Shown here one piece after another: positions 31,439 to 32,080 of a DNA stretch of 35,555 bases (position 1 is the stretch's first letter; each line of letters starts with the position of its first letter). The notes under the pieces were generated by a model. The model saw only the letters and a list, made by a program, of their open reading frames with translations. It searched no databases and was not told where the DNA came from. The DNA is taken from IMG/VR virus record IMGVR_UViG_2554235304_000008; one strand, given 5' to 3'. The position numbers and the translations under genes were made by a program. The DNA comes from a virus (lineage: Duplodnaviria; Heunggongvirae; Uroviricota; Caudoviricetes).

Positions 31439-31656
31439 ATCACCACCAACGGATTGCCCAGACCAGAACAGCAATGGCCACAATACGAATGGCAAATGCC
31501 ATTGCCCGAATAAGTTCAGCACTCATCTTTTTAAAGTTCACGATTTCAGCGCAATGACCAGTTTTGCCAGCCCATACAGCATCGGAGACACAGCAATACC
31601 AACAGCCACCCACTTAATAGCAAAAGCCAGCGCTCTGCTGATGTCATCAGTCACTG

Positions 31657-31788
31657 TCACCCCAGCAGCCCCGACGAAGACAACATCACCCAGGCGAGGG
31701 ACAGAAAAAGAGCAACCAGCATTAGTGAAAATGAAATACCGACAATCACACACAGGACCTTTGCCGGCGTTATGAGTTTGTCTGACAT
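31657..31788 (-). CDS. Candidate 43-aa single-pass membrane peptide between endolysin and Rz
   Basis: MSDKLITPAKVLCVIVGISFSLMLVALFLSLAWVMLSSSGLLG with SD AAGGGG 5 nt upstream. Shorter than the ORF-track cutoff, and it competes with the overlapping 90-aa ORF 31538-31810. Confidence 0.3.
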   Translation of the reverse strand: MSDKLITPAKVLCVIVGISFSLMLVALFLSLAWVMLSSSGLLG

Positions 31789-31790
31789 AG

Positions 31791-31886
31791 CTACCCCTTA
31801 ATTGCCACAATTAACTGGGATACTACCCATAAAAAAGGGATGCTCCAGACCAGCAAAAATTTCCAGTTTGGTAATTGACTAATCAT
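31791..31886 (-). CDS. Candidate 31-aa hydrophobic peptide between endolysin and Rz
   Basis: MISQLPNWKFLLVWSIPFLWVVSQLIVAIKG with SD GGGAG upstream. Its stop overlaps the RBS of the following 43-aa ORF. It is the C-terminal part of ORF 31791-32003, whose upstream part crosses a terminator hairpin. Confidence 0.3.
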   Translation of the reverse strand: MISQLPNWKFLLVWSIPFLWVVSQLIVAIKG

Positions 31887-31952
31887 GAGTCGCAACTCCC
31901 TAATCAGTTTGCTAAAATCAATCAAGGCAGCCTCCCATAGCTTACTGCCATA

Positions 31953-31991
31953 AAAACAAAACCCCGCTTGCTGCCAACAAACGGGGTTTTT
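31953..31991. terminator. Bidirectional intrinsic terminator downstream of the endolysin gene
   Basis: Hairpin CCCCG-(15 nt)-CGGGG flanked by AAAACAAAA and TTTTT. Confidence 0.55.
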
Positions 31992-32080
31992 ACTTTTATT
32001 CACTTAGGTTTTGCCAGTTCACAGGACTTCGTGTTATCCGCCCGCGTTGGCCAACCTCATTTTTCAGCAAAATATTCTGC

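What the first reader, a model, noticed from the sequence alone, without database searches (positions are those of the whole stretch)
31523..32080. Unassigned 560-bp insert between endolysin and Rz with two coupled small hydrophobic ORFs
In classical lambdoid lysis cassettes R is followed directly by Rz/Rz1. Here a terminator hairpin (31953-31991) and an AT-rich stretch follow R. Two back-to-back minus-strand ORFs with good Shine-Dalgarno sequences encode single-TM-like peptides (31 aa at 31791-31886 and 43 aa at 31657-31788), with the first stop overlapping the second RBS. The ORF track instead offers an overlapping 90-aa ORF (31538-31810) with a TTG start. Small membrane peptides in a lysis cassette could be lysis timing modulators, antiholins, superinfection exclusion factors or toxin-like peptides.
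Basis: inference. Interest (0 to 1): 0.5.

Follow-up and report, generated by a model that had tools for sequence, protein, structure and literature searches.

The report
Four membrane miniprotein genes between endolysin and Rz
Between the cell-wall-cutting enzyme gene and the outer-membrane-disrupting genes of this E. coli prophage lie four (not two) real, conserved genes for tiny single-pass membrane proteins of unknown function; relatives sit at the same spot in many phages, including most Shiga-toxin phages.

Summary
The insert is real but mis-bounded. Rz starts at ATG 31438, so the R-Rz gap is 642 bp (31439-32080). After a variable spacer and a conserved intrinsic-terminator hairpin (31958-31990) it holds four tandem minus-strand genes for single-pass membrane miniproteins. 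They are 2-11 nt apart, and the last stops 1 nt before the Rz start.

- A: 31791-31925, 44 aa from TTG.
- B: 31657-31788, 43 aa.
- C: 31538-31654, 38 aa. It is the tail of the spurious 90-aa ORF.

All four match PHROG families of unknown function. All show purifying selection in these frames, and they shuffle as modules among prophages. B is in 276 phage records, mostly Stx phages. A-like genes follow three other endolysin types in other phage lysis cassettes, some in Enterobacter, always behind a terminator hairpin. Two copies lie in tail modules.

No Pfam, NCBIfam, PADLOC or Rfam assignment and no paper was found. My best guess (about 0.4) is late-expressed accessory membrane proteins acting at lysis. 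Moron, exclusion, toxin and relay-ORF readings remain open.

The parts
32081..32614 (-). Endolysin R (177 aa), lysozyme family, with a weakly hydrophobic Ala/Gly-rich N-terminus that looks like a SAR (signal-anchor-release) domain. Upstream boundary of the insert.
   Evidence: Pfam Phage_lysozyme 9e-24 over residues 33-167. PDB relatives 3hde/3hdf 'Lysozyme' and 4zpu 'RrrD' at about 1e-16. N-terminal window 11-27 has KD 1.77. PGAP calls it 'lysozyme/rrrQ'. The SAR assignment is inference from sequence features.
31991..32080 (-). Non-coding spacer after the R stop, with a locally hypervariable 20-50 nt core between conserved blocks.
   Evidence: 23 of the 36 variable sites among 22 haplotypes of the 642-bp gap fall in the first 75 nt. 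The variants are listed. RNAalifold gives no convincing covarying structure.
31958..31990 (.). GC-rich hairpin with T-runs on both sides: an intrinsic terminator readable in both directions. It lies 32 nt upstream of the start of gene A (TTG 31925).
   Evidence: Terminator scan: 15 pairs, 6 GC pairs, loop 3, tail GTTTTTATGG. The fold of 31940-32090(-) has z = -4.1. The stem is kept with both-side changes in relatives. A hairpin precedes A-like genes in the other lysis-cassette and tail-module loci as well.
31791..31925 (-). Gene A: 44-aa single-TM miniprotein (LIDFSKLIRELRLMISQLPNWKFLLVWSIPFLWVVSQLIVAIKG) from TTG 31925, with GGGAGG 5 nt upstream.
   Evidence: phrog_6632, 1.3e-12 with the longer query. 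Homologues of 42-45 aa start at this position with GTG or ATG in Enterobacter, Citrobacter, Klebsiella and two unnamed assemblies. pN/pS is 0.2-0.5 at pS 0.5-0.8. KD 2.19 for residues 24-42. Phage PhiR5_1 carries only a short 31-aa form.
31657..31788 (-). Gene B: 43-aa single-TM miniprotein (MSDKLITPAKVLCVIVGISFSLMLVALFLSLAWVMLSSSGLLG). Its ATG lies 2 nt after the stop of A, and its Shine-Dalgarno AAGGGG is inside the last codons of A.
   Evidence: PGAP CDS WP_001280935. phrog_4906 4.5e-21. 148 protein clusters, all E. coli. tblastn finds it in 276 phage records, mostly Stx phages. pN/pS 0.53, against 1.15 in the 90-aa frame. pN/pS 0.44 against a homologue in another cassette type. KD 2.87.
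31538..31654 (-). Gene C: 38-aa single-TM miniprotein (VTDDISRALAFAIKWVAVGIAVSPMLYGLAKLVIALKS). Its GTG start lies 2 nt after the stop of B. An alternative in-frame GTG at 31660 would overlap that stop. C is the C-terminal third of the spurious 90-aa ORF.
   Evidence: phrog_1115 3e-24. A phage record annotates exactly this CDS. Longer 48- and 60-aa forms with their own ATG exist in other architectures. pN/pS is 0.17, with 8 DNA variants giving one peptide. The overlapping 33-aa ATG frame (31546-31647) has pN/pS 0.88 and stops.
31440..31526 (-). Gene D: 28-aa single-TM miniprotein ([28 protein letters not shown]), a paralog of C. Its TGA stop is 1 nt before the Rz ATG, and its last codons (TGG TGG TGA) supply the Rz ribosome-binding site.
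   Evidence: PGAP CDS WP_032140280. It hits the same PHROGs as C (4493, 3246, 1115). C and D share the motif R-A-x-A-F-A-I-[KR]-x-V-A, and C/D chimeras exist (P0079, P0055). pN/pS is 0.53, and the other frames carry stops or have ratios of 0.9 or more.
30944..31438 (-). Rz i-spanin (164 aa). Downstream boundary of the insert.
   Evidence: Pfam Phage_lysis 4e-51. PGAP 'lysis protein' at these coordinates.
31033..31218 (-). Rz1 o-spanin lipoprotein, embedded in Rz in another frame.
   Evidence: Pfam Rz1 1.7e-21.
33033..33248 (-). Context: phage-21-type class II holin (pinholin, 71 aa). It is followed by a DUF1327/YdfR gene at 32678-33028 (minus strand).
   Evidence: Pfam Phage_holin_2_1 9e-33 and DUF1327 7.5e-43.

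Best explanation
What it is (shown; confidence about 0.9). The segment is a 642-bp mosaic accessory segment in a phage-21-type lysis cassette. That cassette runs pinholin, DUF1327, lysozyme-type endolysin, [insert], Rz/Rz1. The insert begins with a variable spacer and a conserved intrinsic-terminator hairpin. It then carries four tandem genes for single-pass membrane miniproteins: A (44 aa), B (43 aa), C (38 aa) and D (28 aa). C and D are paralogs. Each gene is a self-contained module whose G-rich last codons form the ribosome-binding site of the next cistron. The chain A>B>C>D>Rz therefore has gaps of only 2, 2, 11 and 1 nt.

How it most likely works (inferred; confidence about 0.4). There is a terminator immediately upstream and no sigma-70 promoter-like site between it and the genes. 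The genes should therefore be silent in the lysogen. They would be made only from the late transcript, which is Q-antiterminated and can read through the hairpin, together with holin, endolysin and spanin. The peptides would insert in the inner membrane. Their short N-termini carry Lys/Arg, which suggests an N-in orientation. There they would act by helix-helix contacts as non-essential modulators of the final lysis steps, affecting the timing or efficiency of hole formation, endolysin release or spanin action. They would not be core lysis proteins.

A-like genes occupy the same slot behind four unrelated or different endolysin types and next to three holin types. Any partner is therefore more likely the spanin or the membrane itself than a particular holin or endolysin.
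For: The genes are real:
- PHROG hits for all four.
- RefSeq CDSs for B, D and the C frame on an identical locus.
- pN/pS of 0.25 (A), 0.53 (B), 0.17 (C) and 0.53 (D) in the proposed frames. Alternative frames are near 1 or above, or carry stops. The only comparably low ratios are reverse-strand frames (rev +1: 0.33 for C, 0.34 for A).
- Cross-genus pN/pS of 0.2-0.5 for A and 0.44 for B.
- Each has one hydrophobic segment with KD 2.0-2.9.

The genes are modular:
- 47 distinct R-Rz gaps occur in 161 loci, with the architectures [D], [A,B], [C,D], [C,B], [A,B,C,D], [C,B,C,D] and versions carrying an extra antirepressor-type gene.
- C/D chimeras exist.

The genes are associated with lysis cassettes:
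- B lies directly upstream of Rz in phage BP-4795.
- B is present in 276 phage records.
- 589 of 5426 complete E. coli genomes carry at least 80% of the 801-bp query that spans the gap.
- A-like genes lie between a GH19 endolysin and spanin-like ORFs (L174-176), after an M15-peptidase endolysin with a B-like gene next to it (L179), and 4 nt upstream of a DUF2514 Rz in a holin_3_1 cassette (L180-182).

Expression is likely late only:
- The hairpin terminator is conserved upstream of the first small gene in every lysis-cassette context.
- No promoter-like site lies on the gene strand in 30800-33500, nor in L008, L171 or L175.
- The tight spacing to Rz is read directly from the sequence.
Against: - No experiment or paper bears on these ORFs.
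- There is no homology to any holin, antiholin, releasin or spanin family.
- Two A-like genes sit in tail or baseplate modules, not lysis cassettes (L177, L178). This fits an autonomous moron better than a lysis partner.
- Many related cassettes, such as K-12 Qin, work without any of these genes.
- Individual modules are truncated or frameshifted in some prophages (L005, L006, L094, L109). Any role is therefore dispensable.
- The promoter scan is a crude consensus search and cannot exclude weak or non-sigma-70 promoters.
- Most E. coli loci are closely related, so part of the R-Rz association is plain linkage.
Confidence: 0.4

Rival explanations
1. Autonomous 'mini-morons'. On this view the miniproteins do not serve lysis. 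They give the lysogen or the phage another advantage, for example blocking DNA entry of superinfecting phages at the inner membrane or modulating a host membrane protein. The R-Rz junction would simply be a permissive insertion hotspot in the late operon.
For: - The junction also accepts antirepressor-type genes (BP-4795 ant; a 231-aa ORF in PhiR5_1).
- A-like genes occur in tail and baseplate modules. In Citrobacter one lies next to a lipoprotein gene, is flanked by hairpins, and has a promoter-like site upstream.
- The insert has lower GC (46% against 53%).
- Presence is patchy among related prophages.
Against: - In the window and in the other lysis-cassette contexts a terminator lies directly upstream, with no promoter-like site before the genes. 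This is the reverse of the promoter-ORF-terminator layout of morons.
- The genes are spaced for translational coupling to each other and to Rz.
- There is no PADLOC hit.
- Five of seven independent A contexts are lysis cassettes.
Confidence: 0.2
2. Translational relay ORFs. When DNA carrying a terminator was inserted between R and Rz, the original R-Rz translational coupling was lost. On this view short ORFs persist mainly because translating them delivers ribosomes to the Rz start, and the peptides themselves are by-products.
For: - In Qin the R stop overlaps the Rz start.
- Here every small ORF ends in a G-rich tail that is the ribosome-binding site of the next cistron (AAGGGG-TAG, GGGG-TGA, TGGTGG-TGA).
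- The C-terminal '...IRWW*' is shared by D and by A-like proteins of other genera that abut a spanin gene. This suggests the junction sequence dictates the peptide end.
Against: - Purifying selection acts on the amino-acid sequence throughout the TM segments, not only at the 3' ends.
- Family conservation holds across genera and in contexts without a downstream Rz (L177, L178, L179).
- One ORF would suffice for a relay, yet arrays of two to four are maintained.
Confidence: 0.13
3. Type I toxin-antitoxin-like or abortive module. On this view one or more hydrophobic peptides are membrane toxins held in check by a plus-strand antisense RNA that ends at the bidirectional hairpin.
For: - The peptides have the size and hydrophobicity of Ibs, Ldr, ShoB or TisB-type toxins.
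- The hairpin also has a T-run on the plus strand.
- One promoter-like site on the plus strand (31782-31811, 9/12, TG-extended) would give an RNA of about 180 nt antisense to gene A.
- A similar plus-strand site precedes the hairpin in L008.
Against: - Those promoter hits are within chance expectation: 1 found against 2.5 expected, and 1 found against 1.4 expected.
- No antisense promoter is found in the A-like loci tested in Enterobacter, Citrobacter and Klebsiella.
- No Rfam antitoxin family reaches threshold (best is ohsC, 19.9 bits against 50, on the wrong strand).
- No promoter is found for the putative toxin mRNA.
- A four-cistron chain coupled to Rz is unlike any known type I locus.
Confidence: 0.07
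4. The annotated longer ORFs are the real genes: the 90-aa TTG ORF (31538-31810), the 70-aa GTG ORF (31791-32003) or the PGAP 51-aa CDS (31538-31693).
For: - They appear in the mechanical ORF list.
- The 70-aa and 51-aa versions are annotated in some public records.
Against: - The part of the 90-aa frame that overlaps B has pN/pS 1.15. That part is replaced by unrelated sequence in the [C,B] architectures, where C has its own ATG.
- The 70-aa ORF would have to be translated through the terminator hairpin. Its N-terminal 26 residues are absent from homologues in other genera, which start at the IDFSKLI position.
Confidence: 0.02

Closest known systems
Phage P2 LysA, a non-essential lysis-timing gene between endolysin K and the Rz/Rz1-like lysB/lysC (recalled from Ziermann et al. 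1994; not re-read here)
   Same: It occupies the same slot, between the endolysin gene and the spanin genes. It is a membrane protein, is dispensable, and is thought to tune timing rather than execute lysis.
   Different: As I recall, LysA is a much larger multi-TM protein. No sequence relation was detected or tested. Here there are up to four peptides of 28-44 aa with one TM segment each.
Dual-start holin/antiholin pairs (lambda S107/S105; phage 21 S71/S68)
   Same: They are small membrane proteins of the lysis cassette. Gene A has two in-frame starts 13 codons apart, each with its own Shine-Dalgarno. Both starts are conserved across genera, and the long form adds charged residues.
   Different: There is no hit to any holin Pfam family. 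A has one TM segment, not two or three. Use of both starts is not shown. A genuine phage-21-type holin is already present at 33033-33248.
Mu gp25 'releasin' (DUF2730), PMC9239132
   Same: It is a non-holin, single-TM phage protein encoded within a few genes downstream of a SAR endolysin, and it controls that endolysin's release from the membrane.
   Different: gp25 has 99 aa with a 73-aa acidic cytoplasmic domain, and the whole protein is DUF2730. A-D are 28-44 aa with almost no soluble part and have no Pfam hit. A-like genes also follow non-SAR-type endolysins (GH19, M15 peptidase).
One-TMD holin-like accessory proteins of mycobacteriophage lysis cassettes (LysF1b/LysA2b; PMC13056207 and bioRxiv 10.64898/2026.08.27.747656; abstracts seen)
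   Same: They are small single-TM proteins encoded with lysis genes that regulate the lysis event together with a second membrane protein.
   Different: They belong to Gram-positive-type mycobacterial hosts and unrelated cassettes. No sequence comparison was made.
Type I toxins (Ibs/Sib, ShoB/OhsC, Hok/Sok)
   Same: They are hydrophobic peptides of 20-50 aa, some of them prophage-borne. A terminator upstream of the ORF that is readable on the opposite strand recalls Ibs/Sib.
   Different: No conserved antisense promoter, no Rfam hit and no own promoter were found. The genes form a polycistronic chain coupled to Rz.
Late-operon morons of lambdoid phages (bor, lom, HK97 gp15; recalled from general knowledge)
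   Same: They are patchily distributed accessory membrane-protein genes inserted between conserved late genes. Their GC is lower than the surroundings.
   Different: Morons carry their own promoter and a downstream terminator and are expressed from the prophage. Here the terminator is upstream and no promoter was found.

Membership tests
PHROG families phrog_6632 (A), phrog_4906 (B), phrog_1115/3246/4493 (C and D) | Significant match to the family HMM | tested here: met
   A: 6e-5 for the 31-aa form and 1.3e-12 for the longer query. B: 4.5e-21. C: 3e-24. D: 3.8e-6. All families are labelled 'unknown function'.
Holin/antiholin | Homology to a known holin family | tested here: not met
   No Pfam or NCBIfam hit for any of A-D. 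The cassette's own holin, by contrast, hits Phage_holin_2_1 at 9e-33.
Holin/antiholin | At least one TM segment and a location in the lysis cassette | tested here: met
   One hydrophobic window with KD 2.0-2.9 in each peptide. The genes lie between R and Rz.
Holin/antiholin | Dual-start motif giving two products of opposing function | tested here: inconclusive
   Gene A has a TTG/GTG/ATG start plus a conserved Met14, each preceded by a Shine-Dalgarno, in six loci: the window and five loci from other bacteria. Use of both starts and opposing function cannot be tested here.
Holin/antiholin | Lethal membrane permeabilisation or delay of triggering | not testable with these tools
   Needs expression and lysis-curve experiments.
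Releasin (Mu gp25, DUF2730) | DUF2730 domain: N-terminal TMD plus a cytoplasmic domain of about 70 aa | tested here: not met
   No Pfam hit. The peptides are 28-44 aa. The gp25 description comes from PMC9239132.
Releasin (Mu gp25, DUF2730) | Encoded within five genes downstream of the endolysin | tested here: met
   A-D directly follow R.
Type I toxin-antitoxin | Small hydrophobic toxin peptide | tested here: met
Type I toxin-antitoxin | Antisense or divergent sRNA gene with its own promoter and terminator | tested here: inconclusive
   The hairpin can terminate on the plus strand. One plus-strand promoter-like site (31782-31811) lies within chance expectation. No such site is present in L175, L177 or L178. 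No Rfam family reaches threshold.
Type I toxin-antitoxin | Independent promoter for the toxin mRNA | tested here: not met
   No gene-strand promoter-like site in 30800-33500.
Moron | Own promoter upstream and terminator downstream of the inserted ORF | tested here: not met
   The terminator is upstream, no promoter was found, and the last ORF runs straight into Rz. The exception is the Citrobacter tail-module copy, which has flanking hairpins and a promoter-like site.
Moron | Present or absent among otherwise syntenic phages, with deviating base composition | tested here: met
   Qin lacks the insert. There are 47 gap variants. GC is 46% against 53%.
Known anti-phage defence proteins (PADLOC) | Match to a defence-system HMM | tested here: not met
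   No hits up to E = 10.
Spanin (Rz/Rz1) | Homology to Rz/Rz1, or a lipobox plus a periplasmic domain | tested here: not met
   A-D have no Pfam hit and no lipobox by inspection. The true Rz and Rz1 are at 30944-31438 and 31033-31218.

The most novel reading that the evidence does not exclude
A, B and C/D could be a so far unrecognised class of lysis-cassette component in enterobacterial temperate phages. They would be single-TM miniproteins, inserted as terminator-led modules at the endolysin-spanin junction, that act independently of holin and endolysin type. Possible roles include gating spanin function or setting the sharpness of lysis. Gene A might use a conserved dual start, as holin/antiholin pairs do. 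Because B is present in most Stx1 and Stx2 phages, such a role would also bear on the timing of Shiga-toxin release.
Probability: 0.2. Interest if true: 0.7.

Novelty: new variant of a known kind. Interest (0 to 1): 0.45.

Why it matters
Phage lysis in Gram-negative hosts is usually taught as holin plus endolysin plus spanin. Recent work (the Mu releasin, mycobacteriophage one-TMD proteins) shows that small extra membrane proteins can control the process.

Here four conserved miniprotein genes sit inside a textbook-type cassette. About a tenth of complete E. coli genomes carry essentially this arrangement. One family is in most Shiga-toxin phages, where lysis timing governs toxin release. Yet the genes are unannotated or inconsistently annotated, and no study of them was found.

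The analysis gives exact gene boundaries, start codons and natural architectures ([D], [C,B], [A,B], [A,B,C,D]). These make clean genetic tests straightforward. If the genes prove to have no lysis phenotype, the segment still illustrates how terminator-led mini-cassettes spread through late operons while preserving translational coupling to the downstream gene.

Tried and rejected
- Pfam, NCBIfam and PADLOC scans of all peptide versions gave nothing.
- Rfam on 30800-32800 at E up to 10 gave only sub-threshold noise. Rfam on the whole window at gathering score found only STnc100 at the far end.
- Literature searches found nothing on these ORFs. I searched by accession, by peptide string, and by lysis-cassette, small-protein and Stx-phage terms. 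I also searched the supplements of two EHEC ribosome-profiling papers.
- Two scans of GTDB species-representative genomes with the C/D and D profiles confirmed no loci. The family appears confined to a subset of Escherichia prophages. An exhaustive HMMER search found only 27 representatives, all 87 aa or shorter.
- The alternative 33-aa ATG ORF (31546-31647) is rejected: pN/pS is 0.88, it has internal stops in relatives, and it has no PHROG hit.
- The 90-aa, 70-aa and 51-aa ORFs are rejected as units (see the rival explanations).
- A long-range RNA helix in the post-R spacer was suggested by the single-sequence fold. It is not kept across variants (plus inspection).
- The antisense-RNA (type I TA) idea fails because the promoter hits are within chance and are not conserved.
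- The Mu releasin analogy fails on domain content.
- A small hairpin over the internal Shine-Dalgarno of gene A is invariant, so it has no covariation support.
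Full report
**1. The observation**

The lysis genes of this prophage lie on the minus strand. In order they are:
- a phage-21-type class II holin at 33033-33248 (Pfam Phage_holin_2_1, 9e-33);
- a DUF1327/YdfR gene at 32678-33028;
- a lysozyme-family endolysin R at 32081-32614;
- Rz at 30944-31438 with Rz1 embedded at 31033-31218.

R is related to solved 'Lysozyme' and 'RrrD' chains at about 1e-16. It has a weakly hydrophobic Ala/Gly-rich N-terminus, so I read it as a SAR-type endolysin. That reading is inference.

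In K-12 Qin the homologous rrrQ and rzpQ overlap by 4 nt. The extra DNA here is therefore a real insertion relative to a simple cassette.

PGAP, on a locus that is 100% identical over the 801-nt query, starts Rz at the ATG corresponding to 31438. Rz homologues in other architectures begin MNRVLC at that position. The gap is thus 31439-32080, which is 642 bp.

The hairpin is at 31958-31990. It has 15 pairs and a 3-nt loop, and it is followed by a T-run in the gene direction. On the other strand it is also followed by a T-run (TTTTTACTTTT); the scan reported it on the gene strand only. The insert is only mildly GC-poor, at 46% against 53% for the window.

**2. What is in the gap**

Read in the gene direction, the gap contains the following:
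- 90 nt of non-coding spacer;
- the hairpin;
- a 32-nt leader;
- four tandem ORFs.

The four ORFs are:
- **A** (31791-31925, 44 aa). It starts at TTG with GGGAGG 5 nt upstream.
- **B** (31657-31788, 43 aa). Its ATG lies 2 nt after the TAG stop of A.
- **C** (31538-31654, 38 aa). Its GTG lies 2 nt after the TGA stop of B.
- **D** (31440-31526, 28 aa). Its ATG lies 11 nt after the stop of C, and its own TGA lies 1 nt before the Rz ATG.

Each peptide has one hydrophobic segment with KD 2.0-2.9, flanked by a few Lys/Arg residues.

Public annotation of this region is inconsistent:
- PGAP calls B, D and a 51-aa version of the C frame, and only sometimes a 70-aa version of A.
- One phage record calls the 38-aa C, B and the 70-aa ORF.

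**3. Are they genes?**

All four match PHROG families, each labelled 'unknown function':

| Gene | PHROG family | E-value |
|---|---|---|
| A | 6632 | 6e-5 (31-aa form); 1.3e-12 (longer query) |
| B | 4906 | 4.5e-21 |
| C | 1115 | 3e-24 |
| D | 4493 | 3.8e-6 |

C and D hit the same three PHROGs. They share the motif R-A-x-A-F-A-I-[K/R]-x-V-A. Natural chimeras exist, with a C N-terminus on a D C-terminus and the reverse. I therefore treat C and D as paralogs.

From 161 related loci that have both R and Rz I extracted 47 distinct gap sequences.

Within the 22 haplotypes of the 642-bp type the small-ORF region is almost invariant, so it says little about selection. Thirteen variable sites fall in the remaining 567 nt, against 23 in the first 75 nt after R.

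Across architectures, however, the proposed frames show purifying selection:
- pN/pS is 0.25 for A, 0.53 for B, 0.17 for C and 0.53 for D.
- For C, eight different DNA sequences encode the identical peptide.
- Most other frames have ratios near or above 1, or contain stops. Two reverse-strand frames give similarly low ratios (0.33 for C, 0.34 for A).
- The 33-aa ATG ORF that overlaps C has pN/pS 0.88 and acquires stops.
- The part of the 90-aa frame that overlaps B has pN/pS 1.15.

At larger distances the picture is the same. A compared between the window and the A-like loci from other bacteria gives pN/pS 0.2-0.5 at pS 0.5-0.8. B compared with a homologue in another cassette type gives 0.44.

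The 148 protein clusters of B keep the N-terminus SDKLI, Lys10, the core CVIVGISFSLMLVA, Trp33 and the terminal Gly, while the C-terminal third varies.

I conclude that all four are real protein-coding genes (confidence about 0.9). The 90-aa ORF is a chimera: the real gene C plus an out-of-frame overlap of B.

**4. The start of gene A**

Proteins of 42-45 aa carry the conserved N-terminus (M/V)IDFSKLIRELR. They are named as coming from Enterobacter, Citrobacter and Klebsiella; longer annotated relatives from Salmonella and Providencia contain the same stretch internally.

In the loci I fetched, these genes start with GTG or ATG exactly where the window has TTG 31925, behind a good Shine-Dalgarno. 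The long form is therefore the ancestral gene.

Met14, with its own upstream GGGAG, is also invariant. Phage PhiR5_1 carries only a short form, MKMIKMDWKF.... A dual start is possible but unproven.

The first 12 codons show far fewer synonymous changes than the TM part: 0-3 of about 8 sites, against 7-19 of about 18. This hints at an additional nucleotide-level constraint. A small invariant hairpin covers the internal Shine-Dalgarno, but no covariation is available to test it.

**5. Modularity and distribution**

The following architectures occur:
- [D]
- [A,B]
- [C,D]
- [C,B], the common O157-type
- [A,B,C,D], as in this window
- [C,B,C,D]
- versions of about 1.4 kb that add an antirepressor-type gene upstream of the small ORFs

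Each module ends in a G-rich tail that serves as the ribosome-binding site of whatever follows.

Distribution figures:
- 589 of 5426 complete E. coli genomes carry at least 80% of the 801-bp query that spans the gap.
- B is found by tblastn in 276 phage records, mostly Stx1- and Stx2-converting phages, and is often unannotated. In BP-4795 it is ORF50, directly between ant and Rz.
- C is in only 12 phage records.
- The C/D family has 230 clusters, almost all Escherichia. It has only 27 representatives among 1.84 billion in an exhaustive HMMER search, none longer than 87 aa. No confirmed locus was found in GTDB species-representative genomes.

**6. Contexts of A-like genes outside E. coli**

| Loci | Context |
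|---|---|
| L174-176 (assemblies carrying P0252, a protein named from the Enterobacter cloacae complex) | holin_8, holin_3_7, GH19 endolysin, A-like, then a 92-aa ORF with an N-terminal TMD overlapped by a 61-aa ORF with a lipobox. I infer these two to be i- and o-spanin. |
| L179 | holin_8, holin_3_7, M15-peptidase endolysin, A-like (ATG start), then B-like |
| L180-182 | holin_3_1, a 161-aa ORF, a 78-aa ORF, A-like, then DUF2514 Rz 4 nt downstream |
| L177 (Citrobacter) | A-like lies before the tail-tip gene J, next to a lipoprotein gene |
| L178 (Klebsiella grimontii) | A-like lies inside a baseplate module |

In each locus a GC-rich hairpin with a T-run lies about 35-50 nt upstream of the A start. 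In L177 and L178 I identified it by eye from the sequence.

So five of seven independent contexts are endolysin-spanin junctions. They involve four different endolysin types and three holin types. Two contexts are not lysis cassettes.

**7. Expression logic (inference)**

The consensus scan found no sigma-70-like promoter on the gene strand:
- none between the holin region and Rz in the window;
- none in the O157-type locus;
- none in the BP-4795 locus;
- none in the Enterobacter locus.

A terminator directly upstream, the absence of a promoter and the tight cistron spacing together predict two things. The genes should be silent in the lysogen. They should be made only from the late transcript, which in lambdoid phages is Q-antiterminated and reads through intrinsic terminators. 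That last point is established knowledge of lambda Q and was not tested here.

This layout is the reverse of a classical moron, which runs promoter, ORF, terminator.

**8. Mechanism**

My best-supported reading is that A-D are non-essential inner-membrane miniproteins, co-produced with the lysis proteins, that modulate the last steps of lysis by intramembrane interactions (about 0.4). The slot is conserved behind unrelated holins and endolysins, so a partner, if there is one, is more likely the spanin or the bilayer than the pinholin or the SAR domain.

The rivals are:
- an autonomous moron or exclusion factor (about 0.2), supported by the tail-module copies and by the junction being an insertion hotspot;
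- relay ORFs that merely keep Rz translationally coupled (about 0.13), supported by the ribosome-binding sites in the tails and the shared ...IRWW* ends, but contradicted by selection on the TM sequences and by contexts without Rz;
- a type I toxin-like module (about 0.07), which lacks a conserved antisense promoter, an Rfam hit or its own promoter;
- the longer annotated ORFs being the real genes (about 0.02).

**9. Comparison with known systems**

There is no membership in any holin, antiholin, releasin (DUF2730), spanin or defence family.

By position the closest analogue I know of is P2 lysA, which I recall from the literature and did not re-read. By concept the closest are the Mu releasin (PMC9239132) and the one-TMD regulators of mycobacteriophage lysis (abstracts). 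I found no paper that mentions these ORFs.

**10. Verdict**

The feature is real and richer than described: four genes in three families, with a corrected Rz start and a corrected A start. The sequences are already in databases as hypothetical proteins. What is new is their recognition as a modular, terminator-led miniprotein array at the endolysin-spanin junction, present in Stx phages and across genera. The function remains untested. Interest is moderate (0.45).

Noticed in passing
window 32007-32065 (minus strand, just after the R stop): A short non-coding stretch is hypervariable without indels. 23 of the 36 variable sites among the 22 haplotypes of the 642-bp gap fall in the first 75 nt after R, between strongly conserved blocks and just upstream of the conserved terminator. 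A single-sequence fold suggested a long-range helix, but it is not maintained across variants. The cause is unknown; mosaic recombination and a variable 3'-UTR element are both possible.
   Followed up: partly
window 31887-31925 and L175, L177, L178, L179, L180 at about 3001-3040: The first 12 codons of gene A are almost identical at the nucleotide level across the window and five A-like loci from other bacteria (Enterobacter, Citrobacter, Klebsiella and two unnamed assemblies). There are 0-3 synonymous differences of about 8 sites, while synonymous sites in the rest of the gene are near saturation. The stretch contains an invariant small hairpin over the internal Shine-Dalgarno that precedes the conserved Met14. 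This may be a dual-start control element, but there is no covariation to test it.
   Followed up: partly
window 31440-31455; L175, L177, L178 at about 3120-3138: D in E. coli and A-like proteins of other genera end with the same ...(A/V)(I/V)RWW* sequence. In the window and in L175 (Enterobacter) the TGGTGGTGA that encodes it doubles as the ribosome-binding site of the following spanin gene. The junction sequence seems to be exchanged along with whichever miniprotein gene is last.
   Followed up: partly
window 35475-35555 (minus strand): There is an Rfam STnc100 sRNA match (63 bits against a gathering score of 47), cut by the window end, upstream of the SASA-family esterase gene (33399-35252). 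A 2026 preprint (10.64898/2026.05.13.724894) links STnc100 and PasD sRNAs to this esterase-holin-lysozyme neighbourhood.
   Followed up: no
window 33288-33316 (minus strand): A strong terminator-like hairpin (12 pairs, then TTTTATTGTT) lies between the esterase gene and the holin. The same preprint places the PasA and PasC sRNA genes in this position. I did not check whether this is a Pas-type sRNA.
   Followed up: no
L180-L182 at 984-1624: A hicA/hicB toxin-antitoxin pair sits directly upstream of, and in the same orientation as, the holin gene of a lysis cassette that also carries an A-like gene.
   Followed up: no
L179 at about 3283-3393: An uncalled 36-aa ORF (MKRKHWTYRMPRTAAKWALVAILVPFLLTITCQLFC) with a basic N-terminus and one TM segment follows the B-like gene. 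This cassette has no obvious Rz/Rz1 in the 3 kb fetched downstream.
   Followed up: no
window 31538-32003 versus public records (L001, L002, L004): Annotation pipelines disagree on this region: a 51-aa against a 38-aa C, a 70-aa 'TPR_REGION' ORF that reads through the terminator hairpin, and A and D often missing. In many Stx phage records the B homologue is not annotated at all.
   Followed up: yes
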